From Rhodanobacter sp. (GTDB lineage Bacteria; Pseudomonadota; Gammaproteobacteria; Xanthomonadales; Rhodanobacteraceae): 64,000 bases of DNA. A program made the translations under genes and the position numbers. Location of the stretch: the NCBI GenBank assembly GCA_036563155.1, contig DATCMT010000026.1, positions 7,034-71,033 on the forward strand, read 5' to 3'. Below, piece by piece: positions 47,911 through 64,000 of the stretch. Numbering within the stretch: the first letter of the stretch is position 1; each line of letters starts with the position of its first letter. The notes beneath the pieces are model-generated. The model made no database searches. It was not told the DNA's origin and was given only the letters and a program-made list of their open reading frames with translations.

Positions 47911-48816
47911 ATGTCCGACGATACCCTCAATGCCGACCGCCTCGACGACGTGATACTGGCCCTGTTGTGGGCCAACAGCTTCAAGGAAGAATTCGGCGGT
48001 TACCGCGCCTGGAAATCACTGCCCCGGGACGCACTGGACCGGTTGCATGCCAAGGGCCTTATCGGCAATGCACATGGCCACGCTCACAGCGTCACGCTCG
48101 GTGATGAGGCCTGGTCACGTGGCCAGGCGCTGTTCGAGCAATGGTTCGGCACCGGTGTACCTGCATCCACCAGGCCCGCCACACGAAGCCGGGCCAAGGC
48201 GACAGCCACAGCTGCCGCAAGCGTCCATCAGTTCAAGATCACCCTCGACGGCGTGAAGCCTCCAGTGTGGCGACGCATCCAGCTGCCCACCGACGCCAGC
48301 TTCTGGGACCTGCATTGCGCCATCAACGACGCCATGGGCTGGGAAGACATGCACCTGCACGCGTTTCAGATCGGCGACAAACGCAACGGCATCGACATCG
48401 GCATCCCGATGGAAGACGACATGCCCTGGAACGACACCACCATGCTCGCCGGCTGGGACGTTCCCATTGCCAACCACCTGGACAAGCCCGGCACCCGTTG
48501 CACTTATCTCTACGACTTCGGCGACGACTGGAGTCACAAGGTTGTTCTGGAAGCCATCACCCCACGCGAAGCCAAGGCCAAATACCCCCGCTGCCTCGCC
48601 GGCGCCCGCGCCTGCCCACCCGAAGACTGCGGTGGCATTTATGGTTATACGCGCCTGTGCGACATCCTGAAAAACCCGGCCAAAGCCAACGAGGAAGCCG
48701 AGGAACTGCTCGACTGGCTCGGCGACGACTTCGATCCCGAGGCGTTCGACGCGGGCAAGGTGAAGTTCGGTTCGGCGGCGAGGCGGTTGAAGGCGTTGCG
48801 CGGCAGCATGCGTTGA
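47911..48816 (+). CDS. Fusion of DUF6429-like winged-helix domain and pRiA4b ORF-3 family domain
   Basis: N-terminus LALLW..RAWK..LDRLHAKGLI..SVTL; C-terminus FKITL..PPVWRRI..LHCAINDAMGWEDMHLHAF, YLYDFGDDW, CPPEDCGG. Confidence 0.82.
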   Translation: MSDDTLNADRLDDVILALLWANSFKEEFGGYRAWKSLPRDALDRLHAKGLIGNAHGHAHSVTLGDEAWSRGQALFEQWFGTGVPASTRPATRSRAKATATAAASVHQFKITLDGVKPPVWRRIQLPTDASFWDLHCAINDAMGWEDMHLHAFQIGDKRNGIDIGIPMEDDMPWNDTTMLAGWDVPIANHLDKPGTRCTYLYDFGDDWSHKVVLEAITPREAKAKYPRCLAGARACPPEDCGGIYGYTRLCDILKNPAKANEEAEELLDWLGDDFDPEAFDAGKVKFGSAARRLKALRGSMR

Positions 48817-48932: not shown

Positions 48933-49355
48933 GTGCAACGTCGTCGTTTCCTCATTCACCTGTCCGAGGCACTGGCCGCCTTCGGCGCGCTTCCGGGTGC
49001 AGCGAACGCCAGGCCTCGCGCGGACAAGGCCACGCAAATCCACCTGCAGGACTGTCGCATCGCCGGCGGTCATTACTACGACTGCCCGAGCGTCCTGTCC
49101 GACCTTCGCCCCAGCGATGCGCGGCGGTCTCGCCGCCAACCCGGGAACCCGCACGAAGAACGCGCCATCGAGGTGCTCTGGCACGGCCGCAAACTCGGCT
49201 ACCTGCCGCGTCCGGACAACGCCGCTGCTGCGTCGCTGCTTGATCGCACGCACGACCTTCGCGGCAAAATTTTTGCTGTCGACAATCAGGAAGAAGAGTT
49301 GGAGCCGATCAGGTTACGCGTGTGGATTTACGCCCACCATGGCGACGCACGGTGA
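48933..49355 (+). CDS. Stand-alone HIRAN-domain protein with twin-arginine-like leader
   Basis: MQRRRFL leader; IAGGHYY, PGNPHE..AIEV..KLGYLPR.DN..A.LLD. Confidence 0.75.
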   Translation: MQRRRFLIHLSEALAAFGALPGAANARPRADKATQIHLQDCRIAGGHYYDCPSVLSDLRPSDARRSRRQPGNPHEERAIEVLWHGRKLGYLPRPDNAAAASLLDRTHDLRGKIFAVDNQEEELEPIRLRVWIYAHHGDAR

Positions 49356-49381
49356 ACGCCACAATACCAACGCACTGCGCT

Positions 49382-49828
49382 TCAAGCAGGTCGCTGCATA
49401 TCAAGCAGCGCCATGCCCAACTCGCCCGCGCCCGTGTTGAGCTTCGCATTGAAACAGGCGAACACGAGGTTCGCTGCACCGACCGTTACACACACGCGCT
49501 CGGCGACGGCCAGATGCACACTGTCGTAGGCTCGCAACCCGAAGCGACGCGCCAACGCCGCCGCACGCTGCAACAGCACCTCATCGACACTGATACGCGT
49601 CATCGCCAGCCAGTCCGACTGAAACTTCGTCCACACCACATGGTGATCGGCGGCGGAAATGCGCTGCATCCTTTCCGCCTTGGTCAACGCCGCGGCCATC
49701 TCGGCATAGGCAATCAGGTGGCTGCACGGCGTGACGCCCTCGCGCCCCACCAACTCGACCACCGAACCCCGGCCGACCTCCGGGAGATAGAGGCGTGCCA
49801 GCGCGGAGGTATCGAGATACGCAATCAC
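49382..49828 (-). CDS. vapC: PIN-domain toxin VapC
   Basis: YLDTSAL, YAEM, LRAYDSVHLA; GTGA overlap with upstream antitoxin. Confidence 0.9.
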   Translation of the reverse strand: MIAYLDTSALARLYLPEVGRGSVVELVGREGVTPCSHLIAYAEMAAALTKAERMQRISAADHHVVWTKFQSDWLAMTRISVDEVLLQRAAALARRFGLRAYDSVHLAVAERVCVTVGAANLVFACFNAKLNTGAGELGMALLDMQRPA

Positions 49829-50100
49829 TCCCTGTCTTCCAGCAACAAATCCGTGAAGCTCGGCCCTTCCCCGCGCCAGCCGACCGGCGTGTCCAACCCC
49901 AGGTTCGACACCACGTGGCTCGGTAACACCGCCCAGGACTGGTGTTGCAGCACGTCGGCGGCGGACAAGGACGGCGCCGCGGGAGGCGACAACCGCGCCA
50001 CCACGGTTCCACGAGAGGTCACGGAAATTTCCTCGCCATTGCGCACCCGGCGCAAAACGGCGGAGAGGTTGGCTTTTAGATTGCGGGTGCTGACTTGCAT
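49825..50100 (-). CDS. Phd/YefM-family antitoxin
   Basis: MQVSTRNLKANLSAVLRRVRNGEEISVTSRGTVVARLSP; GGAG RBS. Confidence 0.92.
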   Translation of the reverse strand: MQVSTRNLKANLSAVLRRVRNGEEISVTSRGTVVARLSPPAAPSLSAADVLQHQSWAVLPSHVVSNLGLDTPVGWRGEGPSFTDLLLEDRE

Positions 50101-50115
50101 CGCAAGTCTCCAGAA

Positions 50116-50145
50116 TGTGGTCACATCATTGTTGTTGTGGTCACA
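50116..50145. promoter_or_regulatory. Tandem palindromic operator of the TA operon
   Basis: TGTGGTCACA (TGTG-N2-CACA) at 50116-50125 and 50136-50145, just upstream of the antitoxin RBS. Confidence 0.7.
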
Positions 50146-50369
50146 CAATCAATTTAGTTCAAGAACGTGCGCTGTATGCGGCGGTATCGAACGTCACGCG
50201 CTGCGCAATGCCTGGTCCAGCATCGGCATCGATCGCGTTGCTGCTGCCGTGAGGGTTTGGCGCGGGAAATGCGGTGGTCCGCTGCATGGGGTGCCCTGCT
50301 ATCCAAGAGGCTTCAAAGAGGCCGCGCCAAGTGAACATTGTACTTGGAGTTACGCAGAGCAAGCTCGAT

Positions 50370-50425
50370 ACCTTGATTCGATTGATTCGTTCCTTCTAAC
50401 TAATAGTAATTGTATTTATTCTTCG
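50370..50425 (+). promoter_or_regulatory. AT-rich candidate promoter of the cas operon
   Basis: Strongly AT-rich stretch with TTGATTCG twice (50373, 50382) and TAATAGTAAT downstream; exact -35/-10 not assignable. Confidence 0.4.
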
Positions 50426-50444
50426 AGCGAAGTAGAGTTGCCGC

Positions 50445-50639
50445 ATGGTCAACCATCAGCCCCCCTCCACTTTGTGTCGCCCCGCCGTCTCTGTGGTGGT
50501 GCACCTGCCGTACGAAATCGCCGATTGGCTGGCTTCGCAGCCAGACAGACACACATGGGTGACGCAACTCCTCGTCTCTTTTTATCGCCAGCGGCAGCCA
50601 GATCGACCTACGCAGGACGGAGCATCACATGAGCTTTGA
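50445..50639 (+). CDS. Small putative ribbon-helix-helix protein overlapping cas3 start
   Basis: VSVVVHLP-YEIADWLASQ-PDRHTWVTQLLVSFY gives a strand-helix-helix pattern; 11-nt overlap with cas3; RBS weak. Confidence 0.4.
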   Translation: MVNHQPPSTLCRPAVSVVVHLPYEIADWLASQPDRHTWVTQLLVSFYRQRQPDRPTQDGASHEL

Positions 50640-53088
50640 TGCATTCTTTCAGCACGCGACGCGGGTGCCGCGCCTGCCTTACCCCTATCAAACACGCCTG
50701 GCCACGGAGCCGTGGCCGGATGCGCTTCATGTGCCCACGGGCATGGGCAAGACCGCCGCCGTGGTGCTGGCGTGGTTATTCAAACGCGGTCACAGGCACA
50801 GCAACCCGCAGAGCACCCCGGACCCACAGACGCCGCGCAGGCTGGTGATTTGCCTGCCCATGCGTGTGCTGGTTGAGCAGACGGCCGCAGAAGTTCAAGG
50901 CTGGCTCGAATCGCTCGGTCTGCATGGCAAGGTGGGCGATGGCAAGGTGTCCGTGCATGTATTGATGGGCGGCAGCGAAAATGTACGCCATCCTGAATGG
51001 GCCGGTCAGCCGGAAGAAGACGCGATCATCATCGGCACCCAGGACATGCTGCTCTCGCGCGCTCTGATGCGCGGCTACGGCATGAGCCGCTATCAATGGC
51101 CGGTGCATTTCGCCCTGCTGCACAACGATTGCATGTGGGTCTTCGACGAAGTACAGCTGATGGGCGCGGGGCTTCCGACCAGCACGCAACTGGAAGCCTT
51201 CCGTCGCGATACCGGGCTGGCGCCCACCCACGCCAGCCGCAGCCTGTGGGTGTCGGCCACCTTGCACAAGGACTGGCTGGGCACCGTGGATTTCAAACCG
51301 CACCTGGCCACGCTCGCGATTTCCAGCCTGCAAGCCGACGACCGAGCGCAGGAAGTTGTACAACAGCGTTTGAGCGCATCCAAGCGGCTGCACCGGGCGC
51401 AAACCTCGCTCTCGGGTGGCGCCAAGGGCGATATCCAAGACTACGTCGCGTCGCTGGCTGGCGAGATCGTCGGCCAGCATCAAGCTGGTTGCCAGACACT
51501 GGTCATCCTCAACAACGTCGAGCGCGCGCAGCGGTTGCACACCGAGCTTGGCAAACGGCTGGCCGACGTACCACGGTTGCTTTTGCATGCCCGCTTCCGT
51601 GCGGAAGAGAGGCAGAGACTTGAGCGGCAACTTCGTGACCAACCAAATGCTCGCGGCCGCATCATCATCGCCACTCAGGCAATCGAGGCCGGCGTGGATA
51701 TCTCCGGCCGCACACTGTTCACCGAACTCGCGCCGTGGGCGTCGATGGTGCAGCGTTTTGGTCGCTGCAACCGGGACGGCAAACACGACCAGGCAGATGT
51801 GTTCTGGATCGACATCGCTGCCGACGCGGAGAGGCTCGCACGTCCCTATGACAACGTCACGCTGGCTGCCTCGCGCGACACGCTAGCCGCGCTGGAAGAT
51901 GTCGGTCCGACCCACCTGCCGCAGGTGGATGCCAACCGCCCGCTGACCCAGGTGCTGCGGCGGCGTGATTTCCTCGAACTGTTCAACACGGACGCCGACC
52001 TGTCCGGATTTGACGTGGATATCTCACCGTACATCCGCGACAGCGGCATACCGCCGATCCGAGTGTTCTGGCGCCATATCGAAAAGGGAAAACTGGACGC
52101 CATCGACAAACCGCAACACCAGGAACTTTGCCCCGCCTCCATCGGGCAGATCAGCGCCCACTTGGGCAGCAAGCTCAAGGGAGAGTCCCGCAGCGCATGG
52201 CGTTGGGATGTGCTGGATCGCAAGTGGGTTACGGTCCGCGCGGAGCAGGTTCACCCCGGCATGACCCTGCTGTTGAACACCGCGGAAGGCGGTTATAACG
52301 TGGATCTTGGTTTTGTTCCCGCAAGCAACATGCGCGTCGACACGGTCACCGTACAAACAGCCGATGACGAAGCAGACAGCAACGATGGCGACCCGTTGAC
52401 GCAGATCGGTTGCTGGGTATCGCTGCCCCAGCACCTGGGCGATGTCGCCACTGACGCTGCGGCACTATGCCAGTCGCTACACATCGACGCCGCACTGGCA
52501 GCCGCCGTCACCGAGGCTGGGCGTTGGCATGATCTCGGCAAGGCCCACGAAGCATTCCAGAACGCGCTCGAAGACAGTGGTCACGACCCCGACGGTACGC
52601 CGCCGTGGGCCAAGTCAAACGGCCGCGGACGACTACGCTATTTCGTCGAGACGGCCGACGAAAAGCAGCCGCGCAAGCACTTCCGCCACGAGTTGGCCTC
52701 CATGCTGGCGTGGTTGGAACACGGCTCGCGTGACACTCACCACGACCTGATTGCCTATCTGATCGCCGCCCATCACGGCAAAGTACGTATGGGCCTGCGC
52801 ACCCTACCCGGCGAAAGCGAACCCAAGGGAGACCGCGAGAAACTGTTCGCGCGTGGCGTGTGGGACGGCGACCATCTGCCCGCGCTCGCATTCGACGGTC
52901 GTGAGGTGCCGGAGACCACACTGCACCTGGACATCATGCAACTCGGCCGCAGCGAGCGGCAAGGCGCCTCATGGACCGCCCGGACACAGGCCTTGCTCAA
53001 GCAGCATGGTCCGTTCCGGCTGGCCTGGCTGGAAACGCTGGTGCGCATCGCCGACTGGCGCGCCTCAGCACGGGAGGCCAAGCCATGA
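50629..53088 (+). CDS. cas3: Type I-G Cas3 (SF2 helicase with C-terminal HD nuclease)
   Basis: PTGMGKT, FDEVQ, SAT, QRFGRCNR, then LPQHL..HDLGK..RHELAS..AHHGK..IADW. Confidence 0.96.
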   Translation: MSFDAFFQHATRVPRLPYPYQTRLATEPWPDALHVPTGMGKTAAVVLAWLFKRGHRHSNPQSTPDPQTPRRLVICLPMRVLVEQTAAEVQGWLESLGLHGKVGDGKVSVHVLMGGSENVRHPEWAGQPEEDAIIIGTQDMLLSRALMRGYGMSRYQWPVHFALLHNDCMWVFDEVQLMGAGLPTSTQLEAFRRDTGLAPTHASRSLWVSATLHKDWLGTVDFKPHLATLAISSLQADDRAQEVVQQRLSASKRLHRAQTSLSGGAKGDIQDYVASLAGEIVGQHQAGCQTLVILNNVERAQRLHTELGKRLADVPRLLLHARFRAEERQRLERQLRDQPNARGRIIIATQAIEAGVDISGRTLFTELAPWASMVQRFGRCNRDGKHDQADVFWIDIAADAERLARPYDNVTLAASRDTLAALEDVGPTHLPQVDANRPLTQVLRRRDFLELFNTDADLSGFDVDISPYIRDSGIPPIRVFWRHIEKGKLDAIDKPQHQELCPASIGQISAHLGSKLKGESRSAWRWDVLDRKWVTVRAEQVHPGMTLLLNTAEGGYNVDLGFVPASNMRVDTVTVQTADDEADSNDGDPLTQIGCWVSLPQHLGDVATDAAALCQSLHIDAALAAAVTEAGRWHDLGKAHEAFQNALEDSGHDPDGTPPWAKSNGRGRLRYFVETADEKQPRKHFRHELASMLAWLEHGSRDTHHDLIAYLIAAHHGKVRMGLRTLPGESEPKGDREKLFARGVWDGDHLPALAFDGREVPETTLHLDIMQLGRSERQGASWTARTQALLKQHGPFRLAWLETLVRIADWRASAREAKP

Positions 53089-53594
53089 AGCTGGCCGCGT
53101 TCGAAACCGTGGCCAAGGCGCTGGACACCGCTCAGGTGCGCTATCTGGTGGCCGGTGGCCTGGCCGTCAACGCGCACGGCTACATCCGCTTTACCGCCGA
53201 CATCGACATGGTCATCGCGCTCGACGCGGACAACATCGCCCGCGCCTTCAAGGCACTGTCGGAGATCGGCTGTACACCTTCGGTTCCCATCACCGCTGAC
53301 ATGTTTGCCAAACCGGAACAACGACACCAGTGGATGAAAGAAAAGGGCATGCAGGTGCTGAACTTTCACAGCAATGCCCATCCGGGAACCTCGGTGGACG
53401 TGTTCGTGCATGAGCCCTTCGATTTCGCGCAAGAGTACGCCGCTGCCATGCAAGGCGAACTCCTGCCAGGCATCACCGTGCGATTCGTTTCCATCCCTAC
53501 CCTGATCCGCATGAAGCAAGTCGCCGGACGCGCCCGCGACCTCGACGACATCGAGCACCTGCGTTGGTTGCAGAAGGACAGCGAACATGACTGA
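53085..53594 (+). CDS. Pol-beta-superfamily nucleotidyltransferase (DUF6036-like)
   Basis: YLVAGGLAVNAHGYIRFTADID (GG + DxD), VDVF, LIRMKQVAGRARDLDDI; GGAGG RBS; overlaps cas3 stop and cas8g start. Confidence 0.88.
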   Translation: MKLAAFETVAKALDTAQVRYLVAGGLAVNAHGYIRFTADIDMVIALDADNIARAFKALSEIGCTPSVPITADMFAKPEQRHQWMKEKGMQVLNFHSNAHPGTSVDVFVHEPFDFAQEYAAAMQGELLPGITVRFVSIPTLIRMKQVAGRARDLDDIEHLRWLQKDSEHD

Positions 53595-55974
53595 GCGCCG
53601 CGACGATATCGACTGGGAGAAAACCACCTTCGACGGCAGCCGCCGCGAGCAACTGCGCCGTGGACAGGCCATGAGCCTTCGCCAGCGGCTGGAAGCGCTG
53701 GATCAACTCACCGACTTGGCCGCCCGCATGCAAACCATGCCACGACATGGCGACTATGCCCGTCGCCGCGAAACTTCGGCCAGCGTGCACGAAGAACGGA
53801 GTCGTTATGCGGAGGGCGCCTCCATCCACACCCTGATTCTCGAAGGCTGCACGCCGACACCACTGGCAAGCTACCTGAAAGCACTCGGCATACTGCGTCT
53901 GGTCGCAGAGCAGGCCGATCCCGATACCTGCGGATACTGGATGGATGACGTGTTCACCTTGCAGACCACGCAGGATCGCGAAGCGCTGCAAGCTTTCTTT
54001 CTCGACCGGTATCAACCGACCCCTATCCTCGCGCCGTGGAATGGTGGCAGCGGATTTTACCCAGGAGACAATCAATCCGGCGTGGAGCCGGTAAGTCGCA
54101 GTGCCACACCTCGCCTTGCCACGTTGCGCGAAACCGTTGCCGCTATCAGGAAGGTGCTTGCACGATCCAACATCGAAGAAAAGCCTGACCTCGATACAAA
54201 GCTGGTGCTGCTTCGACACTTGCGTAACCACTTGGACGACAGTGCGCTGGTCTGGCTTGACGCCGCCACCTTGCTATCGGACGACAAGCCGCTGTATCCA
54301 CCTCTTTTGGGAACCGGAGGCAACGATGGGCGACTCGACTTCACCAATAACTTCCTGCAACGGCTAGTCAGCCTGATCGACTGCGATAGCGGTGAACCAA
54401 CGCTTCTGGCGAGGCAACAACTTCCAGAGAGCCTGTTCGGTGTCGCCACACCTGGGCAAGTCTCCGCTGCCATCGGCCAGTTTTCCCCCGGCGGCGCGGG
54501 TGGCCCCAACGGCACCACCGGATTCGACAGCAAATCCGGCTTCAATCCGTGGGACTTCGTCTTCATGCTGGAAGGCGCCGTACTGTTCGCGGCTGCCGCG
54601 ACCCGCCGTCTGGAATCGGGCGACACATCCGCACTCAGCTATCCGTTCACGGTGCGCACCACGGGAAGCAGCGACGGAAGCACGGCGCCGGACGACGAGA
54701 GCGCCGCGCGCGCGGAAATATGGATGCCACTGTGGGATCGTCCAACATCGCTGGATGAACTGCGGACCCTGTTGTCAGAAGGCCGCGTTACCCTGCACCG
54801 GCGCCCTGCACGCGACGGCCTAGACTTCGTGCGCGCCGTATCGCAACTGGGGGTTCAGCGCGGCATCCGTTCCTTTCAGCGCTATGGCTTCCTGATGCGA
54901 TCCGGCAAGGCGTATCTGGCCACGCCGTTGAACCGCATTCTGGTGGAACGCAATCCGGCCGCCGATCTGATCAATGAACTCGACACCCATTACTGGTTGC
55001 AACGCTTCCGCTCTCTGGCGCGGCGCAAGGAGGCCCCGGCCCGGTTACGCAGTCTGGTACGTCGCCTTGAGAGCGCCCTCTTCGATCTGTCGCGCTTTTC
55101 CGATCCACGCTTTGTGCAGCAGGTGCTGATCGTACTGGGGCAGGCGCAAGGCTATCTGGCTTCCAGCCCCGGCGCCCGCGAAAATTGCCCACCGGTTCCG
55201 CGCTTGAGCGTTGCCTGGAGCATCGCCGCCGACGATCGGAGCGCGACGTTCAGAATTTCCGCAGCACTGGCCGGCCTGCATCTGCAACCGGACGATGACG
55301 CCAAGCGGCCCTCCATGCCCATGGCCGTGCATTTCGCGCCCATCGACCCGGACGGCAGAAGCGGTTGGCCCAAGGATCCGAATTCAGCTGCCATGGTCTG
55401 GCATGCGGGCGACCTGAGCCGCAACCTCCATGCCGTCGCACAGCGACGGTTGCTGGATGCCCTGCGCGATGGCGATGTCGGCAAACCGTTCGCGCATTTT
55501 GCCACCGCACCACTGGTGCACATTGCCGAGTGGCTGGCCTCGCCCGCCATGGACACGCAAGTCGATGCCTTGCTGCGTGGCTTGGTACTGGCACGCATAC
55601 CACGCGGCTTCGCCGGCAAGGCACCTACCGCCACGCCATTGCCGGTCACCTTCGCCGCGCTGAAGCCATTGTTCTGCACCGAGCAGCAATTGCGCGATTG
55701 CGGGCTGCTGGCCACGGACCTGCGCCTTCCGCTGGAACCATCGATGCTCAAGCGCCTGTGGCTTGGCTCCGCCGACGCCATGCGGTATGCCGCCCGGCGC
55801 CTGCTCGCTGCCGGGCTGCATGTCGATACCAGCAACATCGACATGACCGCGGTTGATTCCCGCCGTTTGCTGGCAGCCCTGTTGGTTCCCATCACTAACG
55901 ACGATCTGAAACGGCTGTTGAAACCCCTGCAACCGTCCACTCGTGACAACGAACCTGAACTCGCTACCGCCTGA
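53587..55974 (+). CDS. cas8g: Cas8g (Csx17) with a 79-aa N-terminal extension
   Basis: From residue ~80: LEGCTPTPLASYLKALGILRLVAEQAD, PWNGGSGFY, LLGTGGNDGRLDFTNNF, NPWDFVFMLEGA, EIWMPLW; preceded in frame by an unrelated helical segment. Confidence 0.92.
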   Translation: MTERRDDIDWEKTTFDGSRREQLRRGQAMSLRQRLEALDQLTDLAARMQTMPRHGDYARRRETSASVHEERSRYAEGASIHTLILEGCTPTPLASYLKALGILRLVAEQADPDTCGYWMDDVFTLQTTQDREALQAFFLDRYQPTPILAPWNGGSGFYPGDNQSGVEPVSRSATPRLATLRETVAAIRKVLARSNIEEKPDLDTKLVLLRHLRNHLDDSALVWLDAATLLSDDKPLYPPLLGTGGNDGRLDFTNNFLQRLVSLIDCDSGEPTLLARQQLPESLFGVATPGQVSAAIGQFSPGGAGGPNGTTGFDSKSGFNPWDFVFMLEGAVLFAAAATRRLESGDTSALSYPFTVRTTGSSDGSTAPDDESAARAEIWMPLWDRPTSLDELRTLLSEGRVTLHRRPARDGLDFVRAVSQLGVQRGIRSFQRYGFLMRSGKAYLATPLNRILVERNPAADLINELDTHYWLQRFRSLARRKEAPARLRSLVRRLESALFDLSRFSDPRFVQQVLIVLGQAQGYLASSPGARENCPPVPRLSVAWSIAADDRSATFRISAALAGLHLQPDDDAKRPSMPMAVHFAPIDPDGRSGWPKDPNSAAMVWHAGDLSRNLHAVAQRRLLDALRDGDVGKPFAHFATAPLVHIAEWLASPAMDTQVDALLRGLVLARIPRGFAGKAPTATPLPVTFAALKPLFCTEQQLRDCGLLATDLRLPLEPSMLKRLWLGSADAMRYAARRLLAAGLHVDTSNIDMTAVDSRRLLAALLVPITNDDLKRLLKPLQPSTRDNEPELATA

Positions 55975-56994
<1,020 letters not shown>

Positions 56995-56996
56995 TC

Positions 56997-58544
56997 ATGC
57001 TGGCTATCCGTTTTCTTTTCCCCACCGGCCGGTATCACGCGACCCCGTGGGGGCGGCACGTCAACGAGGCCGATGTGGAATGGCCACCCTCGCCGTGGCG
57101 TCTGCTGCGCGCGCTGGTTGCCACCTGGCATCGCAAACTCGACCCGATCCGCTATCCCAGGATGCAACTGGCTGCGCTGATCGAACGCTTGAGCGAAGCC
57201 CTCCCGGTATACCGGTTGCCACCCGCCGTGCGCGCCCACACGCGTCATTACATGCCGGTGCGTGAAGGCAGCAAGGACAAACCGGTCCTGATCTTCGACG
57301 CCTTCGTCCATATGCAGCCGGATGCCGAACTCATCATGGCATGGCCGGACCTTGCGCTCGGCGATAGCGACGGCGAACTTCTGCACGCCCTGCTGGATGG
57401 CCTTAGTTTTCTGGGCCGCGCCGAAAGCTGGGTCGAAGCGTCGGCGCTGGATCGCTGGCAGGGCGAACCCAACTGCGTGCCGTCCGAACTGTCCATGGAC
57501 ATGCGTACCGGTGAGGCATTGGAGCCGGTGCGGGTGATCGCCCCCTTGTCGGTTAGCGCCTGGCAGTCCTGGCGCCAGAGTTTCATCGCCGGAACCGACT
57601 GGGACGCCATGACCCACAAGCCGCGCGAACAACTGCAAGCCACCTTGCCCGAGGCGCTGCTCGAGGCCATCAGTCTGGACACGGCAGACTTGCAGGCAGT
57701 CGGCTGGAGCCGGCCACCGTCAGCGCAATTCGTGACCTACCAACGATCCATGAGCTGCTTCTCGCCGAGTGCAACCATGCGTCCATCACGTCCGCCTACT
57801 TCGGCTCACAGCGTACGCCTGGCCCTGCAAGGCAAACCGCTGCCGCGCATCGAAGACGCCGTACGCATCGGTGAACTGATACGCCGCGCTGCGCTCAAGT
57901 CCGCGGACAAGCTTGGAATCCCGGTTCCACCGGTGCTTTCCGGCCACGATCTGCCTGCCGGGAATTGCCATGCCCATGCGTTCTTCCTACCGGAAGACGC
58001 CGATAACGACGGGCATATCGACCACATCCTTGTGTACGCAAGGGATGGCCTCGATGCCAACGCGATTGCCGCACTTGCCGAGGTTCATTTTCTCTGGCAA
58101 CGCGATGGCGGCAAATGGCGCATCCTGTTCGAAGGCGCCTTGCGCGGCAGCGACCCAGCCTCCCGTTACGCAGCTACAAGCCGTATCTGGGAATCGGCCA
58201 CGCCCTATCTTCACCCATGGCATGCGAAAAGTGCCTTCGGTTATGCCGAACAGATTCGCCGTGAATGCCGCCTGCGCGGCCTGTCAGAGCCGCAGGTCGA
58301 GACTCTACCAACCATCACGATCAACGGTCGGCAGCGTCGGTCAATCCATTTTTATCGGTTTCGCAACAAACGTGGCTTGCAGCAGCCGGATCGCCAAGGC
58401 TGCCTTCTGCGCCTGACTTTCCCGCACCCCGTCGCCGGTCCTCTGGCCCTGGGCTTCGGCTGCCATTTCGGGCTTGGCCTGTTCGTACCATTGTCCACTG
58501 TGGGTGCCTCGTCGCCGAACCCGGCCAATTCAGCAACAGCATAG
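56997..58544 (+). CDS. csb2: Csb2 (Cas5/Cas6 fusion)
   Basis: GRYHATPWGRHVNEADVEWPPSPWRLLRAL, LGRAESW, HAHAFFLPED, WESATPY, GPLALGFGCHFGLGLF. Confidence 0.95.
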   Translation: MLAIRFLFPTGRYHATPWGRHVNEADVEWPPSPWRLLRALVATWHRKLDPIRYPRMQLAALIERLSEALPVYRLPPAVRAHTRHYMPVREGSKDKPVLIFDAFVHMQPDAELIMAWPDLALGDSDGELLHALLDGLSFLGRAESWVEASALDRWQGEPNCVPSELSMDMRTGEALEPVRVIAPLSVSAWQSWRQSFIAGTDWDAMTHKPREQLQATLPEALLEAISLDTADLQAVGWSRPPSAQFVTYQRSMSCFSPSATMRPSRPPTSAHSVRLALQGKPLPRIEDAVRIGELIRRAALKSADKLGIPVPPVLSGHDLPAGNCHAHAFFLPEDADNDGHIDHILVYARDGLDANAIAALAEVHFLWQRDGGKWRILFEGALRGSDPASRYAATSRIWESATPYLHPWHAKSAFGYAEQIRRECRLRGLSEPQVETLPTITINGRQRRSIHFYRFRNKRGLQQPDRQGCLLRLTFPHPVAGPLALGFGCHFGLGLFVPLSTVGASSPNPANSATA

Positions 58545-58651
58545 CTACGGATTTTCCGTTACGCATATGTCACAGGGAATTTCCATAATTTCGATGCCAA
58601 TGGATCCGCCGCCACCGCCGCAACGGAGTTGCCAGTGACTACCTTCGACCC

Positions 58652-59368
58652 GTGCCACACTTGATGGGCAGTCCGTTGGACAACCCGCTCCCTTCAGGCG
58701 AACAGCGCAGCGACGCGATCCGCCTCGTCATGGATGACCGCGAATGTCGGGGCCCCATGCCTGCGGCCATCGCGGCGTGCGGTGCGTTTGCTGTGGAGGT
58801 GCGACGCCTTCCGGTAGGCGACTACTGCGTGGATGACGCGTTGCTGTTCGAACGCAAGACGCTGCTCGACCTGGCGGCCTCGATCAAGGACGGCCGGTTG
58901 TTCGATCAGGCGCTACGCCTGACCCATGCGGAACTACGCAGCGCACTGATTCTTGAAGGCAGCTCACGTGATCTGGTTACCAGCGGCATGCGCATGGAAT
59001 CCATCCGCGGCGCGCTGGTGAATGTTGCGCTGTTCATCAGCCTGCCCGTGCTGCGCACACGCGATGCGATGGATACGGCACGAACGTTGGGTTATGCCGT
59101 ACGACAGCGACGTGCGCTGGTCAACGGCGGATTGCCGCGCCACGGTTGCCGACCGAAGGGCAAGGCGGCATTGCAATCCTACGTGTTGCAGGGGCTTCCA
59201 GGCATTGGGCCGCGTCGCGCGGCGCGCCTGATCCAGCGATTCGGCAGCATCGAGGCAGCCATGGCGGCAGACATGGATGCGCTGGCCGAAGTAGACGGCA
59301 TTGGCGCACACACCGCGCGCAGGCTGCGCTGGTGTGTGGAAGAAGCGCCCGCGGCATTTGCCGTTTGA
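58652..59368 (+). CDS. XPF/ERCC4-family structure-specific nuclease with (HhH)2 domain
   Basis: DDRE, LPVGDY, FERKT..D...SIKDGRLFDQ, LILEG; two HhH motifs GLPGIGP and VDGIG. Confidence 0.92.
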   Translation: MPHLMGSPLDNPLPSGEQRSDAIRLVMDDRECRGPMPAAIAACGAFAVEVRRLPVGDYCVDDALLFERKTLLDLAASIKDGRLFDQALRLTHAELRSALILEGSSRDLVTSGMRMESIRGALVNVALFISLPVLRTRDAMDTARTLGYAVRQRRALVNGGLPRHGCRPKGKAALQSYVLQGLPGIGPRRAARLIQRFGSIEAAMAADMDALAEVDGIGAHTARRLRWCVEEAPAAFAV

Positions 59369-59411
59369 AGAAGAACACTACCGGTGAACGTGCGTTGCCC
59401 ACCACGTCATC

Positions 59412-59781
59412 TCACACCCGATACAGCACCATCACCTCAACCTTCTCCCCACCCACCTTGAAATCCCGCGTATTCCGCGTAACCAGCACCAGCCCATGCT
59501 GCACAGTCACCGCCGCCTGCAACGCATCGGGCGACTTCCAATGCTCGCTGCAATGCAGGGAGGCGGCAAGGTCAACCATCTCGCTGGTGATCGGCAGGTG
59601 CGGAAATACATCGGGCAGCTCGTGCGCCAACGGCTCGGTGCGAACGGTGAAACCGGCGAGCACTCCGGCGCGGGTGATGACGGAGATGGCGCGCCCACTG
59701 TTGTATTTGGCCAGGAAGGTGGTGGCGGCTTCGACGCTGTTGAAGTGGTCGATCAGGATGACCGAATCGAGCGGGTATCTC
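59412..59781 (-). pseudogene. Inactivated VapC/PIN toxin
   Basis: ARYPLDSVILIDHFN..ITRAGVL..KSPDALQAA..LVTRNTRDF; expected start codon reads GCG, an in-frame TGA lies just upstream, conserved Glu appears as Gly. Confidence 0.8.
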
Positions 59782-60021
59782 GCCCGCGGTCATCCCACTC
59801 ATCTCGCAGGCGGCGCTGATGGTGCAAGCCATCGCTGTGTTCCCAGATAGCGGCGGTGCGACGCAGCGCGACTTGCAAGTCAGCCCCCGGCTTTCGTGCC
59901 GGACGCGATAACCGCGCACGGCCTGCCGTACCGGTTCGGTCATCGGCGGGTTGCGCGCGTGGGCCTCGCGGTCCAGCCACGCTTTGTCGCCGGGGTCCAG
60001 ATCGATGGGTGTACGTGCCAT
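59753..60021 (-). pseudogene. Frameshifted RHH antitoxin
   Basis: MARTPIDLDPGDKAWLDREAHARNPPMTEPVRQAV, continuing in another frame after ~59885 as DLQVALRRTAAIWEHSDGLHHQRRLRDEW. Confidence 0.75.
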
Positions 60022-60137
60022 GGAGAGGGCGATATCGCACGTCGCATCGTCAGGTATCACCCTTGCCCCACCAAGTGAAACCAGAGTAAAAGCTTGACCG
60101 TTAAGGATCATCGACAGACGCAGGGGAGCGACGTCCG

Positions 60138-61856
60138 ATGGAACCGAAGCAGGGGGACTTGCAGCTGCCATTCCCGGAGCTGGGCGGCGACCAGCCGCTG
60201 ATTCCGGTGCGCATGCTCAATGAGCACGTGTATTGCCCGCGGCTGGCGTATCTGGAATGGGTGCAGGGCGAGTGGGCCGATTCCGCCGACACCGTCGATG
60301 GCCGACACCGGCACCGACGCGTTGACAAGCCTTCCGGAGACCTGCCTGCAGCTGACAAGGCGCGCGAAGAGAGCGCCGAGATCCACGCCCGTTCGGTCAC
60401 GCTGTCGTCCAACACCATCGGTCTGATCGCCAAGCTCGACCTGATCGAGGGCGAAGGCGATACCGTCACGCCAGTCGATTACAAGCGCGGCAAGCGGCCG
60501 CACACGCCACGCGGCGTGTACGATCCCGAACGCGTGCAACTGTGCGCACAAGGCCTGCTTCTGCGCGAACACGGCTATGTGTGCGACGAAGGCGCGATCT
60601 ACTACGTGGCGAGCAAGGAGCGCGTCGCCGTGCCCTTCGACGACGAGCTGATCGCACTGACCCGCAACGCGATTGCCGAGCTGCGTGCGATGGCCGCCGG
60701 CGGGCGTATTCCCGACCCGCTGGTGGACAGCCCCAAATGCCCACGCTGCTCGCTGGTGACGATCTGCCTGCCCGACGAGGTGCAATACCTGCATCGTGCC
60801 GAGCTGGCACCGCGCCCACTGGCCGTTCCGCATCACGAGGCACTACCCCTGTACATTCAGCAGTTCAACGCCAAGCTGGCAAAGAAGGGTGAAGTGCTGG
60901 AGGTCAGCAAGGATGATCAGGTGCTGGCCAAGGCCCGCATCGGCGAGGTCTCGCAGGTGGTGTTGATGGGGAATGTCTACATCACCTCGCCGTGCCTGGG
61001 CGAGCTGATGCAGCGGAACATCCCTGTCACCTGGCACAGCTATGGCGGCTGGTTCTACGGCCACACCGTCGGCAACGGCCACAAAAACGTGGAGCTGCGC
61101 ACCGCGCAGTACCGCACCAGCTTCAACGACGCCGCCTGCCTGCGCGTCGCGCGAGCGCTGGTGGCCGCAAAGATCGCCAACAGCCGCACCCAGTTGCGGC
61201 GCAACTGGAAACTCGAAAAAAAGCCGGAGCGCCTGTTGGCCGACATGAAGCGCATTCAACGGCAAAGCGAGAATGCCGAGAACCTGCAGACCCTGCTTGG
61301 CATCGAAGGCAACGCCGCCGCGCACTACTTCGAGAACTTCCGCAACACGCTCAAGCCCACGACCGTCGAAGACGAAGCGCTGCTGTCGTTCGATTTCACC
61401 CGGCGCAACCGGCGCCCACCGACCGATCCGGTCAATGCGATGCTGTCATTCGCCTATACCCTGCTGGCGCGGACGCTGACGGTGACACTGCAAGCGGTGG
61501 GTTTCGATCCGTTTCGCGGCTTCTACCACCAGCCGCGTTACGGTCGCCCCGCGCTCGCCCTGGACCTGATGGAGCCCTTCCGCCCGTTGCTTGCCGATTC
61601 GGTTGTGATCCAGGTGATCAACAACGGCGAGGTGCACCCCAGCGACTTCGTCAGCGCCGCCGGCAGCGTCAACCTCACCCCCGATGGACGCAAGCGATTC
61701 ATTGCCGCGTTCGAGCGCAGGCTCAGCCATGAGGTCACCCACCCCATGTTCGGTTATCGCCTGAGCTATCGCCGCCTGCTGGAACTGCAGGCGCGGCTGC
61801 TGGGGCGATTCCTGCTGGGCGAGCTGGACGACTACCCCAACTTCACCACCCGATGA
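60138..61856 (+). CDS. cas1: Cas4-Cas1 fusion
   Basis: Cas4: YCPRL, KLDL, DYKRG, CPRCSL..C; Cas1: GIEGNAAAHYF, NAMLSFAY, GFYH, LDLMEPFRP. Confidence 0.97.
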   Translation: MEPKQGDLQLPFPELGGDQPLIPVRMLNEHVYCPRLAYLEWVQGEWADSADTVDGRHRHRRVDKPSGDLPAADKAREESAEIHARSVTLSSNTIGLIAKLDLIEGEGDTVTPVDYKRGKRPHTPRGVYDPERVQLCAQGLLLREHGYVCDEGAIYYVASKERVAVPFDDELIALTRNAIAELRAMAAGGRIPDPLVDSPKCPRCSLVTICLPDEVQYLHRAELAPRPLAVPHHEALPLYIQQFNAKLAKKGEVLEVSKDDQVLAKARIGEVSQVVLMGNVYITSPCLGELMQRNIPVTWHSYGGWFYGHTVGNGHKNVELRTAQYRTSFNDAACLRVARALVAAKIANSRTQLRRNWKLEKKPERLLADMKRIQRQSENAENLQTLLGIEGNAAAHYFENFRNTLKPTTVEDEALLSFDFTRRNRRPPTDPVNAMLSFAYTLLARTLTVTLQAVGFDPFRGFYHQPRYGRPALALDLMEPFRPLLADSVVIQVINNGEVHPSDFVSAAGSVNLTPDGRKRFIAAFERRLSHEVTHPMFGYRLSYRRLLELQARLLGRFLLGELDDYPNFTTR

Positions 61857-61895: not shown

Positions 61896-62186
61896 ATGGA
61901 CGAACATCTGTACCTGGTAACCTACGATATTCGCGACGACAAGCGCTGGCGCCGCGTCTTCAAGACCATGAAGGGTTTCGGCGAATGGCTGCAACTTTCA
62001 GTATTCCAGTGCCGCATGAGCCAACGTCGGCATGCCGAGATGCTGGAACTGCTCGACGGCATCATCCTGCATCGCACCGATGCCCTGCTGATCATCGACC
62101 TCGGCCCTGCCGACAAGGTCAAACCCCGCGTGGTCAGCCTCGGTGACAAATTCGAACCCGTCGCGCGCGAGCCGATCATCGTGTGA
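61896..62186 (+). CDS. cas2: Cas2
   Basis: YLVTYDIRDDKRWRRVFK..GFG..LQLSVFQC. Confidence 0.97.
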   Translation: MDEHLYLVTYDIRDDKRWRRVFKTMKGFGEWLQLSVFQCRMSQRRHAEMLELLDGIILHRTDALLIIDLGPADKVKPRVVSLGDKFEPVAREPIIV

Positions 62187-62415: not shown

Positions 62416-64000
62416 GTGTTCCGCAGCAGTTCGCTGCGGCCTCATTGAAGCTCCTGCGGCCGTGCGTTGCGCGCAGCCACCGCCGTCGTGTTCCGCAGCA
62501 GTTCGCTGCGGCCTCATTGAAGCCGACGTACTTGTTGCCTTTCTTGATGCACGGGACGGTGTTCCGCAGCAGTTCGCTGCGGCCTCATTGAAGCCGCCAT
62601 GTTGGTCAGCCATGCGGTCATCAATGCCTCGTGTTCCGCAGCAGTTCGCTGCGGCCTCATTGAAGCAACCCACTGCATTTGATCTACCTGCCGCGCGCAG
62701 CGGCGTGTTCCGCAGCAGTTCGCTGCGGCCTCATTGAAGCTACTACTACGGCGAGACGCCGCCGTCCGAGTTGCGGGTGTTCCGCAGCAGTTCGCTGCGG
62801 CCTCATTGAAGCTATCTGTGGGCGTGCAACCTGTACGTGTCCGCTTGCGGTGTTCCGCAGCAGTTCGCTGCGGCCTCATTGAAGCAGGTACTCCTTGAGT
62901 GAGTGGTGTTGGGGGAGGTCGGTGTTCCGCAGCAGTTCGCTGCGGCCTCATTGAAGCCGGATCAGCAGCAAGGCGCCGGCACGCAACGTACTGAGTGTTC
63001 CGCAGCAGTTCGCTGCGGCCTCATTGAAGCGCGCAGGCCTGGAAGATGGCCGCCTGTTGAAGGCCCGTGTTCCGCAGCAGTTCGCTGCGGCCTCATTGAA
63101 GCAAGGTCAAGGGCGTATCGACGTACTACAACAAGGACGGGTGTTCCGCAGCAGTTCGCTGCGGCCTCATTGAAGCACTTCCCATCGCTATTCTCCTTTG
63201 TCGCCTTTGCCGTTGTGTTCCGCAGCAGTTCGCTGCGGCCTCATTGAAGCTACGTCCACGCGGTGACCGGCGTACTACCACCAAGCGTGTTCCGCAGCAG
63301 TTCGCTGCGGCCTCATTGAAGCCGCCACGGCTACGTGTCGGGCGAAGCGGCTGTGTGGGTGTTCCGCAGCAGTTCGCTGCGGCCTCATTGAAGCGCGCTG
63401 GCCTCCGGCGTCAACACCCGCTCGATGGGCGTGTTCCGCAGCAGTTCGCTGCGGCCTCATTGAAGCGCTTCGTTCTGCGCGATGCGGGGGATGCTGGGTG
63501 CAGTGTTCCGCAGCAGTTCGCTGCGGCCTCATTGAAGCGGCGGCACGGGTGGCGAAACTGACGAGAAACGGCTTGTGTTCCGCAGCAGTTCGCTGCGGCC
63601 TCATTGAAGCGGCTCGGGCCGCGTCCCAGCCGGCGTGTCGATCGTGTGTTCCGCAGCAGTTCGCTGCGGCCTCATTGAAGCGGATAGCGCGCCGGTCTAC
63701 TCCGCGACGCTGATTGTCGTGTTCCGCAGCAGTTCGCTGCGGCCTCATTGAAGCTCGCTGGTGTAGGCGGTATCCCAGTTGCTGGCCGTGGTGTTCCGCA
63801 GCAGTTCGCTGCGGCCTCATTGAAGCATGATCGAAGCCGACGAATCGATCAACGTCCGCGACGTGTTCCGCAGCAGTTCGCTGCGGCCTCATTGAAGCGC
63901 CGACTCCACTCGCGCGGTTAACGATGCCTACGGTGTGTTCCGCAGCAGTTCGCTGCGGCCTCATTGAAGCCAGCCTCGCCTGCTGACCGTAACCGGTGGC
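62416..64000 (+). CRISPR. Type I-G CRISPR array, 22 identical 36-bp repeats, 21 full spacers (35-38 nt) plus one truncated
   Basis: Repeat GTGTTCCGCAGCAGTTCGCTGCGGCCTCATTGAAGC (stem CCGCAGC/GCTGCGG, 5-nt loop, ATTGAAGC end) from 62416-62451 to 63935-63970; probably continues past the window. Confidence 0.99.

What the first reader, a model, noticed from the sequence alone, without database searches (positions are those of the whole stretch)
58652..59368. Bacterial XPF/ERCC4-(HhH)2 nuclease between the interference and adaptation modules
Seen: intact GDY..ERKT..D catalytic motif plus two HhH motifs, on the same strand as the cas genes, between csb2 and cas4-cas1. Established: this short architecture matches crenarchaeal XPF, a 3'-flap/branched-DNA endonuclease. 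Inference: it might trim prespacer overhangs, process Cas3 products or R-loop flaps for priming, or resolve integration intermediates; alternatively it is passive cargo.
Basis: partly seen in the sequence, partly recalled or inferred. Interest (0 to 1): 0.65.

Follow-up and report, generated by a model that had tools for sequence, protein, structure and literature searches.

The report
XPF nuclease gene inside CRISPR operon
A small, intact DNA-junction-cutting nuclease of the XPF family sits inside a type I-G CRISPR-Cas operon; the same placement recurs in about 30 other loci, a 2022 paper mentions it in one figure legend, and nobody has tested what it does.

Summary
Window 58652-59368 (+) encodes a 238-aa ERCC4 nuclease plus (HhH)2 protein with every catalytic motif intact. 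Its closest solved relative is the short XPF of Aeropyrum pernix. It lies between csb2 and cas4/cas1 of a complete type I-G locus with a CRISPR array.

The association with I-G is not chance:
- 22 of 86 species-representative homologue loci carry I-G genes, as do 7 of 10 metagenome contigs.
- Placement is nearly always between the interference and adaptation modules.
- Two independent loci show an ATGA overlap with csb2, and one locus is a compact operon with no other cargo.
- The gene is under purifying selection (dN/dS 0.12-0.20).

It is also an optional accessory:
- None of 20 independently sampled I-G loci has it.
- XPF-positive and XPF-negative loci interleave on the Cas4/1 tree.
- A derived clade of the family lives without cas genes, often beside other defence systems.
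- The slot also collects toxin-antitoxin genes.

Shangguan et al. 2022 already noted an "xpf-like gene" at this position in Thioalkalivibrio and guessed prespacer processing. Later work showing that Cas4/1 is self-reliant weakens that guess.

My best reading is a junction nuclease acting on Cascade-Cas3 products. No experiment has tested this.

The parts
58652..59368 (+). xpf-like gene: 238-aa ERCC4 nuclease + (HhH)2
   Evidence: The start is at or near GTG 58652; the public 212-aa call from ATG 58730 would truncate beta-strand 1.
58733..58744 (+). DDRE motif (residues 28-31), first acidic cluster of the ERCC4 active site
   Evidence: Invariant in alignment A1. Aligns to DVRE of A. pernix XPF.
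58817..58870 (+). GDY (56-58) ... ERKTLLD (67-73) catalytic signature
   Evidence: G56, D57, E67, R68, K69 and D73 are invariant in A1 and A2. Identical to the 2bgw signature in the alignment.
59186..59329 (+). tandem helix-hairpin-helix (HhH)2 domain, residues 179-226
   Evidence: HHH_5 E 9e-11 and HHH_2 E 1e-8. Matches the Hef HhH domain 1x2i.
50629..53088 (+). cas3g (helicase with a C-terminal HD domain)
   Evidence: TIGR02621, 816 bits.
53587..55974 (+). csx17 / cas8g
   Evidence: TIGR04113, 726 bits.
55990..56994 (+). csb1 / cas7g
   Evidence: TIGR02570 and PF09617.
56991..58544 (+). csb2 (Cas5-Cas6 fusion); its stop lies 107 bases before the xpf start
   Evidence: TIGR02165, 217 bits. 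No terminator-like site lies between csb2 and xpf.
59412..60040 (-). decayed vapBC toxin-antitoxin pair, convergent with xpf
   Evidence: The PIN frame 59412-59789 has no start codon. The antitoxin is split over two frames. It is 74% identical to the intact VapC of L001.
60138..61856 (+). cas4g/cas1g fusion
   Evidence: NF049935, 836 bits. Cas4 motifs are intact.
61896..62186 (+). cas2
   Evidence: PF09827 and TIGR01573.
62416..64000 (+). CRISPR array, 36-nt repeat GTGTTCCGCAGCAGTTCGCTGCGGCCTCATTGAAGC, at least 22 units, runs off the window

Best explanation
The gene encodes an active short XPF-type, structure-specific DNA endonuclease. By analogy with A. pernix XPF it is a homodimer that binds DNA through its (HhH)2 domains and cuts next to a double-strand/single-strand junction.

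It is an optional accessory of a subset of type I-G CRISPR-Cas loci. In this window it is expressed as the last gene of the interference operon cas3g-cas8g-cas7g-csb2-xpf.

Most likely it acts on the branched or gapped DNA that Cascade-Cas3 produces on a target: forks, 3' flaps, and the edges of the Cas3-made single-strand gap or R-loop. Cutting the remaining strand there would turn one-strand damage into breaks and fragments. That would complete target destruction and supply duplex fragments to Cas4/1-Cas2 for primed spacer acquisition.

Shown here: identity, fold, intact active site, purifying selection, and a recurrent operonic association with I-G.

Inferred, not shown: dimerisation, the substrate, and the step at which it acts.
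For: Identity:
- ERCC4 plus HhH2 domains, all catalytic motifs, 2bgw as the best sequence and fold match, pLDDT 84.

Functional constraint:
- dN/dS is 0.12-0.20 among Rhodanobacteraceae loci.

Association with I-G:
- I-G cas genes lie within 10 kb in 22 of 86 species-representative homologue loci. Cas4/Cas1 is the commonest conserved neighbour.
- 7 of 10 metagenome contigs of close homologues are I-G loci.
- 21 of the 22 I-G-linked homologues fall in one well-supported set of 41 rows, drawn as the basal grade when the tree is rooted on the archaeal outgroup.
- In an even sample of 400 genomes of the class, I-G covers about 2e-4 of the DNA. Yet 2 of the 4 close family members in that sample lie in I-G loci.

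Operonic embedding:
- ATGA overlap of csb2 and xpf in L133/L134 (sequence checked) and in the P0034 contig.
- Gaps of 52-196 bases after csb2 in the window, L077, L083, L021, L128 and L129.
- L128 is a compact cas3-cas8-csb1-csb2-xpf-cas4/1-cas2 operon with no other cargo.
- The P0034 contig keeps xpf with the interference genes while no adaptation genes follow.
- In rearranged I-G variants (csb1-csb2-cas3g-extension) xpf still lies between interference and adaptation genes.

Repeated association rather than one inherited linkage:
- XPF and Cas4/1 trees are incongruent outside one family, and dS of xpf exceeds dS of cas4/1 for the same locus pairs.
Against: - No experiment exists for any member of this family.
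- Interference by the XPF-bearing T. sulfidiphilus system works in E. coli with Csb2, Cas7, Cas8g and Cas3 only (PMC9638904). Cas4/1 plus Cas2 of G. sulfurreducens suffice for naive and primed acquisition (PMC6547450).
- None of 20 independently sampled I-G loci has xpf. XPF-positive and XPF-negative loci interleave on the Cas4/1 tree, with at least 5 gains or losses.
- The csb2-to-cas4/1 slot also collects PIN toxin-antitoxin pairs, PDC-S01, PDC-S37/Hhe and SEC-C proteins. Co-location alone is therefore weaker evidence here than elsewhere.
- A clade of 46 homologues has no cas neighbours. Close relatives persist in the same chromosomal island without I-G (L123, L125).
Confidence: 0.4

Rival explanations
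1. Independent defence-island or repair nuclease. XPF works on its own, as a general 3'-flap/fork nuclease or a stand-alone defence gene. It merely lodges in the cargo-accepting slot between the two I-G modules, as the toxin-antitoxin genes do.
For: - The slot is a hotspot. XPF-negative I-G loci also carry 0.2-3 kb inserts there. XPF-positive loci carry PIN toxin-antitoxin pairs, PDC-S01 and PDC-S37/Hhe.
- A derived clade of 46 homologues has no cas neighbours.
- Solo copies lie beside Wadjet JetA2/B2/C2, a DpdE/ZorD-like helicase, and a UvrD-like helicase with subtilase and AAA ATPase genes.
- L123 and L125 share the window's chromosomal neighbourhood (isocitrate dehydrogenase, PRiA4_ORF3 gene) and keep xpf without I-G.
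- None of 20 random I-G loci has xpf.
- Published reconstitutions of interference and adaptation need no XPF.
Against: - Ordinary cargo does not show this preference. About a quarter of all homologue loci, and 11 of the 18 closest (at least 60% identity), are I-G loci (my tally of the loci).
- Placement is nearly always the same slot and strand.
- Translational coupling to csb2 occurs in two lineages, and one compact operon has no other cargo.
- 8 of 25 genomes with a 'solo' copy still carry a true Cas4g/Cas1g elsewhere, against 20 of 399 in the class sample. This comparison is not corrected for phylogeny.
Confidence: 0.3
2. Adaptation partner, the reading in the Shangguan et al. figure legend. 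XPF trims 3' overhangs or flaps of prespacers, or otherwise matures prespacers, for Cas4/1-Cas2.
For: - XPF enzymes cut 3' single-stranded arms at duplex junctions (established for archaeal XPF), and prespacers have such arms.
- Xpf lies 43-234 bases upstream of cas4/cas1 in L128, L034, L027 and L030.
- Xpf precedes cas4/1 even when the interference module is rearranged.
- A 38%-identical relative lies 3.7 kb from a type I-C-like locus that also has cas4.
- PMC9638904 states this view.
Against: - I-G Cas4/1 processes both prespacer ends itself and is described as self-reliant (PMC10504553).
- No residue of Cas4/1 distinguishes XPF-positive from XPF-negative loci, and the Cas4 motifs are intact in both, so XPF does not replace a lost activity.
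- Xpf is more often coupled to csb2. In this window a convergent vapBC remnant separates it from cas4/1.
- The P0034 contig has xpf but no adaptation genes.
- XPF cuts inside the duplex near the junction, which would not leave the overhangs that integration needs (established knowledge of XPF; inference for this case).
Confidence: 0.15
3. Self-protection or locus maintenance. XPF removes branched lesions made by the system on the host chromosome, such as abortive integration intermediates or off-target R-loops. Alternatively it acts together with the neighbouring toxin-antitoxin genes to stabilise the locus.
For: - vapB-vapC-xpf are tightly packed in L013, L004, L016, L020 and L002.
- A roughly 490-aa SEC-C protein with an antitoxin-like domain adjoins xpf in 7 loci.
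Against: - Half-site integration leaves a branch attached by its 3' end, that is a 5' flap, which is not an XPF substrate (inference).
- The toxin-antitoxin families next to xpf differ between loci.
- The window copy lacks an intact toxin-antitoxin partner.
Confidence: 0.1

Closest known systems
xpf-like gene WP_012638991.1 in the type I-G locus of Thioalkalivibrio sulfidiphilus HL-EbGr7 (Shangguan et al. 2022, NAR, PMC9638904, Figure 1 legend)
   Same: It occupies the same slot between csb2 and cas4/1 and is accompanied by toxin-antitoxin genes. The homologue in T. sulfidiphilus ALJ17 (L077) is 53% identical to the window protein and has the same neighbours.
   Different: The host family differs. 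The paper gives only one sentence: the gene is uncharacterised and its suggested role (prespacer processing) is a guess.
Crenarchaeal short XPF (Aeropyrum pernix XPF, PDB 2bgw/2bhn; Sulfolobus XPF)
   Same: Same two-domain architecture (ERCC4 nuclease plus (HhH)2) and the same size. GDY, ERKxxxD and GRLF motifs are identical. Sequence match E 1.3e-26 over residues 24-226; top Foldseek match.
   Different: About 32% identity. It scores far below NCBIfam's archaeal Xpf equivalog cut-off (79 against 300 bits). It is bacterial, so no PCNA partner exists, and no PIP-box-like or clamp-binding motif is evident at the C-terminus. It sits in a CRISPR operon rather than a repair context.
Hef nuclease domain (Pyrococcus furiosus, PDB 1j22-1j25, 1x2i) and eukaryotic XPF-ERCC1 / Mus81-Eme1
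   Same: Same nuclease fold (TM 0.88, rmsd 2.0 A to 1j24) and the same HhH2 fold. NF010337 Hef gives E 1.4e-40 over the C-terminal 210 residues.
   Different: It has no helicase domain and no catalytically dead partner subunit. It is presumably a homodimer.
Host and Cas nucleases known to serve CRISPR adaptation (Cas4; DnaQ-like and other 3'-5' exonucleases; RecBCD)
   Same: It is a nuclease gene placed next to the adaptation module and could act on the same DNA ends.
   Different: The fold and chemistry are unrelated. No evidence shows that XPF takes part. I-G Cas4/1 needs no helper in vitro.

Membership tests
XPF/Mus81/Hef (ERCC4) nuclease superfamily | ERCC4 domain above the curated threshold | tested here: met
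   PF02732: 70.7 bits against a cut-off of 24, E 1.5e-19.
XPF/Mus81/Hef (ERCC4) nuclease superfamily | Catalytic signature GDXn-ERKX3D plus the upstream acidic motif | tested here: met
   DDRE 28-31, GDY 56-58 and ERKTLLD 67-73 are invariant across homologues and aligned to 2bgw.
XPF/Mus81/Hef (ERCC4) nuclease superfamily | Nuclease fold (type II restriction-enzyme-like core) | tested here: met
   The AF2 model has pLDDT of about 88 or more over residues 21-150. Match to Hef 1j24: TM 0.88, rmsd 2.0 A.
Short (crenarchaeal-type) XPF | Architecture of nuclease domain plus C-terminal (HhH)2 only, about 210-250 aa, no helicase domain | tested here: met
   238 aa. HHH_5/HHH_2 at residues 179-226. 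Full-length alignment to 2bgw.
Short (crenarchaeal-type) XPF | Equivalog-level sequence membership (NCBIfam NF040956 Arch_Xpf_endonucase) | tested here: not met
   79.4 bits against a cut-off of 300. This is a separate bacterial family.
Short (crenarchaeal-type) XPF | Homodimer; cleavage of 3' flaps and forks; PCNA dependence through a C-terminal PIP motif | not testable with these tools
   Only monomer prediction is offered. Bacteria lack PCNA, and the C-terminal tail (residues 231-238) is predicted with low confidence.
CRISPR-associated accessory gene of type I-G | Recurrent presence inside cas operons in many lineages, beyond chance | tested here: met
   22 of 86 homologue loci plus 7 of 10 metagenome contigs, across at least 8 families of Pseudomonadota. 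The background share of DNA in I-G loci is about 2e-4.
CRISPR-associated accessory gene of type I-G | Operonic or translational coupling with cas genes | tested here: met
   ATGA overlap with csb2. Compact operon in L128. A 107-base gap with no terminator-like site in the window.
CRISPR-associated accessory gene of type I-G | Presence in most loci of the subtype (core status) | tested here: not met
   Absent from all 20 independently sampled I-G loci. XPF-positive and XPF-negative loci interleave on the Cas4/1 tree.
CRISPR-associated accessory gene of type I-G | Demonstrated contribution to adaptation or interference | not testable with these tools
   No experiment exists. Published reconstitutions work without it.
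Known anti-phage defence systems (PADLOC-DB 2.0) | Match to a model of a described defence protein | tested here: not met
   No PADLOC family at E up to 0.01.

The most novel reading that the evidence does not exclude
XPF is a dedicated, exchangeable fourth nuclease of type I-G systems, beside Cas3, Cas4 and Cas1. It may be recruited by Csb2, Cas8g or Cas3 to the ds/ss junctions that Cas3 leaves behind, where it cuts the intact target strand. This would convert unidirectional single-strand degradation into double-strand breaks and mechanistically couple interference to primed spacer capture. The frequent neighbour, a roughly 490-aa SEC-C protein with an antitoxin-like domain, could be its regulator.
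Probability: 0.2. Interest if true: 0.7.

Novelty: new member of a known kind. Interest (0 to 1): 0.5.

Why it matters
Type I-G is the least studied type I subtype and is being developed for genome engineering. How Cas3 products become prespacers is an open question for all type I systems.

An XPF-family junction nuclease wired into a cas operon would be the first use of this archaeal/eukaryotic repair enzyme family in CRISPR immunity. It offers a simple handle for testing that link: a single small gene, dispensable, with known catalytic residues. If it makes second-strand cuts, it could also change the deletion outcomes of I-G editing tools.

If it turns out to be only cargo, the locus is still a clear example of the interference/adaptation junction acting as a landing pad for defence and toxin-antitoxin genes.

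Tried and rejected
1. Phage link. Earlier scan notes describe phage ERCC4-HhH nucleases next to Cas4-like exonucleases. A tblastn of the window protein against 50,697 phage records found nothing at E 1e-5. This family is not the phage one, so the lead was dropped.
2. Known defence system component. There was no PADLOC hit.
3. XPF compensating for a degenerate Cas4 or Cas1. No alignment column of Cas4/1 separates XPF-positive from XPF-negative loci, and the Cas4 motifs are intact in all 33.
4. Strict co-inheritance with Cas4/1. The Mantel correlation is r = 0.63 for all 13 loci but r = 0.17 (not significant) once the four Rhodanobacteraceae loci are removed. The trees are partly incongruent.
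The promoter scan found no sigma-70-like site in 58300-60300, which says little in a high-GC genome.
6. The long ORF 49322-50632 before cas3 as a relative of the SEC-C protein. No similarity was found. That ORF has no family match and may not be a real gene.
7. The systematic survey of CRISPR-linked genes (Shmakov et al. 2018, recalled from memory). The paper is not held, so I could not check whether ERCC4 is listed there. Full-text searches for ERCC4 or XPF with CRISPR terms gave only the Shangguan figure legend.

Full report
**What is there**

The ORF at 58652-59368 (+) translates to 238 residues.
- Pfam finds an ERCC4 nuclease domain at residues 27-146 (70.7 bits against a cut-off of 24). 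It also finds a tandem helix-hairpin-helix domain at residues 179-226.
- NCBIfam matches the nuclease end of Hef (E 1.4e-40) and archaeal Xpf (E 2.8e-22), but far below their equivalog cut-offs.
- The motifs DDRE (28-31), GDY (56-58) and ERKTLLD (67-73) are present and invariant among homologues.
- The best solved relative by sequence is the short XPF of Aeropyrum pernix (2bgw/2bhn, E 1.3e-26, full length).
- An AlphaFold2 model (mean pLDDT 84) finds the same entries first. It superposes on the Hef nuclease domain with TM 0.88 and rmsd 2.0 A.
- The public gene call of 212 aa starts at M27 and would remove the first beta-strand. The conserved N-terminal stretch in P0003 and P0004 argues for a start at or near GTG 58652.

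**Surroundings**

The gene lies in a complete type I-G locus, all on the + strand:
- cas3g 50629-53088
- csx17/cas8g 53587-55974
- csb1 55990-56994
- csb2 56991-58544
- xpf
- cas4g/cas1g 60138-61856
- cas2 61896-62186
- a CRISPR array of at least 22 repeats of 36 nt, running to the end of the window

Xpf starts 107 bases after csb2, with no terminator-like site between them. The 770 bases between xpf and cas4/cas1 hold a convergent vapBC pair that is decayed: the PIN frame has no start codon and the antitoxin is frameshifted. In this window xpf is therefore the tail of the interference operon, and cas4/cas1 must have its own promoter.

**Is the association more than chance?**

A pattern scan of one genome per species found 433 stretches encoding relatives. 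I analysed 86 homologue loci together.
- 22 of the 86 carry I-G cas genes within 10 kb, nearly always in the order interference genes, xpf, cas4/cas1, cas2, array.
- Hosts include Rhodanobacteraceae, Nevskiaceae, Lysobacteraceae, Wenzhouxiangellaceae, Ectothiorhodospiraceae, Zoogloeaceae, Pelomicrobium and unnamed Betaproteobacteria.
- An all-against-all clustering of flanking ORFs gives Cas4/Cas1 as the most widespread neighbour family.
- Ten further close homologues looked up on metagenome contigs gave seven I-G loci and three without cas genes.
- In an even sample of 400 genomes of the class, 21 have a true Cas4g/Cas1g. I-G loci thus occupy about 2e-4 of the DNA. Yet two of the four close XPF family members in that sample (the window and G172) sit in I-G loci, and a third sits 3.7 kb from a type I-C-like locus.
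- Among the 18 homologue loci at 60% identity or more to the window protein, 11 are I-G loci (my tally of the loci).

**Operonic embedding**

- In L133/L134 and in the P0034 contig, the csb2 stop and the xpf start overlap as ATGA. I checked this in the L133 sequence.
- L128 is a compact cas3-cas8-csb1-csb2-xpf-cas4/1-cas2 operon with 151- and 43-base gaps and no other cargo.
- In the P0034 contig, xpf follows csb2 and is followed by housekeeping genes with no adaptation module.
- In rearranged I-G variants (csb1-csb2-cas3g-Cas3 extension; L001) xpf still lies between the last interference gene and cas4/cas1. L017 and L025 show only weak cas3g matches and no csx17, csb1 or csb2 matches and appear to be the same kind of variant.
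- In L027, L030 and L034, xpf abuts cas4/cas1 instead, with gaps of 86-234 bases.

**The gene is functional but optional**

- dN/dS of xpf is 0.12-0.20 among four Rhodanobacteraceae loci, against 0.05-0.10 for cas4/cas1.
- None of 20 I-G loci fetched from the even class sample contains xpf.
- On a Cas4/Cas1 tree, XPF-positive and XPF-negative loci interleave, with at least five changes forced by well-supported branches.
- XPF and Cas4/1 distances correlate overall (Mantel r 0.63, p 5e-4). They do not correlate once the Rhodanobacteraceae cluster is removed (r 0.17). dS of xpf exceeds dS of cas4/cas1 for the same locus pairs. The two genes therefore have partly separate histories, and the association has been re-made or broken several times.
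- No Cas4/1 residue marks XPF-bearing loci, and the Cas4 motifs are intact everywhere. XPF does not replace a lost Cas4 activity.

**The other side: a cargo slot and solo copies**

The stretch between csb2 and cas4/cas1 is a landing pad.
- XPF-negative loci also have 0.2-3 kb inserts there.
- XPF-bearing loci also hold PIN/VapC pairs of several families, an AAA_14-DUF4143 ATPase (PADLOC PDC-S01) and a 1762-aa helicase-nuclease (PDC-S37/Hhe).
- In seven loci a roughly 490-aa protein with a SEC-C motif and an Xre/MbcA/ParS antitoxin-like domain sits next to xpf.

On the XPF tree, 21 of the 22 I-G-linked homologues fall in one well-supported set of 41 rows (SH-aLRT 97). That set is drawn as the basal grade when the tree is rooted on the archaeal outgroup. 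A derived clade of 46 (Chromatiaceae, Zetaproteobacteria, Thiodiazotropha, Desulfobacterales) has essentially no cas neighbours.
- Solo copies often lie beside other defence genes, for example Wadjet JetA2/B2/C2 and a DpdE/ZorD-like helicase.
- L123 and L125 share the window's chromosomal neighbourhood and keep xpf without any I-G genes.
- A betaproteobacterial group keeps xpf next to a WYL regulator and decaying I-G fragments.
- Eight of 25 genomes with a solo copy carry a true Cas4g/Cas1g elsewhere, against 20 of 399 in the class sample. This comparison is not corrected for relatedness.

**What is known**

Shangguan et al. 2022 (PMC9638904) state in the legend of Figure 1 that T. sulfidiphilus has, between Csb2 and Cas4-1, two toxin-antitoxin systems and an xpf-like gene. 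They call it 'uncharacterised but most likely' a 3'-flap endonuclease for prespacer processing. The same paper shows plasmid clearance and phage P1 immunity in E. coli with Csb2, Cas7, Cas8g and Cas3 only.
- Almendros et al. 2019 obtained naive and primed acquisition with Cas4/1 and Cas2 of G. sulfurreducens.
- Dhingra and Sashital 2023 showed that I-G Cas4/1 trims both prespacer ends and is 'self-reliant'.
- Other full-text searches found no further mention.
- The 2018 survey of CRISPR-linked genes is not held, so I could not check it.

**How it most likely works**

- Shown: an intact, constrained XPF-type nuclease that is recurrently and operonically embedded in I-G loci.
- Inferred from established properties of short XPF and Hef: a homodimer that cuts the strand running from duplex into a 3' single-stranded arm at flaps, forks and bubble edges.
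- Three observations point to Cascade-Cas3 products as the most likely substrates. The gene is most often coupled to csb2. It can stay with the interference genes alone. Cas4/1 needs no trimming helper.
- I therefore favour forks and the ds/ss borders of Cas3-made gaps or R-loops as substrates. A cut of the intact strand there would give breaks and fragments that finish the target and feed primed adaptation (confidence 0.4).
- The main rival is an independent defence-island or repair nuclease that merely lodges in the slot (0.3).
- Direct prespacer trimming (0.15) and self-protection or locus maintenance (0.1) follow.

**Verdict**

The association with type I-G is real, conserved and statistically strong, but the gene is an optional accessory whose function is untested. 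The case is not new as an observation, since one sentence has been published. The breadth of the association, the coupling to csb2, the gain-and-loss pattern and the solo clade are, as far as the searchable literature shows, undocumented. Interest is moderate (0.5).

Noticed in passing
L012:8817-9866 (Rhodanobacter MAG), just upstream of its xpf at 10001: A long array of 28-nt type I-F-like repeats (about 145 units, 60-base period) ends next to a solo xpf. Its last spacer (GCAGCGATTCGCTGCCGCCTCATTGAAGCATG) matches 26 of 29 bases of the 3' part of the window's I-G repeat. It could be a relic of an I-G repeat or a spacer against I-G arrays. That genome has no Cas4g/Cas1g.
   Followed up: partly
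L001:10805-12286, L013:10712-12229, L081:10557-12197, L015:8526-9977, L016:3337-4860, L127:8827-10284, P0004 contig: A roughly 490-aa protein with an N-terminal SEC-C zinc motif and a C-terminal Xre/MbcA/ParS antitoxin-like domain adjoins xpf in seven loci (40-64% identical to each other). It is absent from the window. It may be a second accessory gene or a partner of XPF.
   Followed up: partly
window 59412-60040 (-): A decayed vapBC pair. The PIN frame lacks a start codon and the antitoxin is split by a frameshift. Intact relatives of this VapC lie in the same slot of other I-G loci, including the XPF-negative locus L101.
   Followed up: yes
L127:1-2396, L128:1-2921, L129:1-3141, L133:187-3405, P0034 contig: Cas3g proteins of these I-G loci carry a Fic (PF02661) domain hit on the same 1050-1140-aa product, suggesting a Cas3-Fic fusion.
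   Followed up: no
L119:5456-6181 (-) and L119:9887-18334 (+) (G115, 39% GC): A 38%-identical XPF homologue lies 3.7 kb upstream of a locus whose gene sizes and order look like type I-C (cas3, three effector genes, cas4, cas1, cas2). This is a single case, and the subtype is not confirmed by family models.
   Followed up: partly
L123:6181-7245 (+): A second protein with only an ERCC4 domain (354 aa) lies two genes upstream of a mazE-PIN-xpf trio. This is in a defence island that shares the window's isocitrate dehydrogenase neighbour but has no cas genes. The protein has no PADLOC match.
   Followed up: no
L125:6814-7728 and window 47647-48816: A PRiA4_ORF3/DUF6429 gene lies upstream of the cas locus in the window. 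In L125 its relative (55-71% identical in the tblastx pieces) sits directly before a solo xpf, as if the cas genes between and after them had been deleted or never inserted.
   Followed up: partly
L074:2938-13590, L033:1585-7387, L061: In a betaproteobacterial group, xpf sits beside dnaJ and a WYL regulator and is followed by fragments of I-G genes (a truncated cas3g, a cas4/1 piece). This looks like a decaying I-G locus in which xpf survives.
   Followed up: partly
window 49322-50632 (+): A 436-codon ORF overlaps the cas3 start by 4 bases. It has no match in Pfam, NCBIfam or PADLOC. It shows weak tblastn similarity (28-29%) to stretches inside two other I-G loci (L095, L106). It may be a spurious long ORF in high-GC DNA covering smaller real genes.
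   Followed up: no
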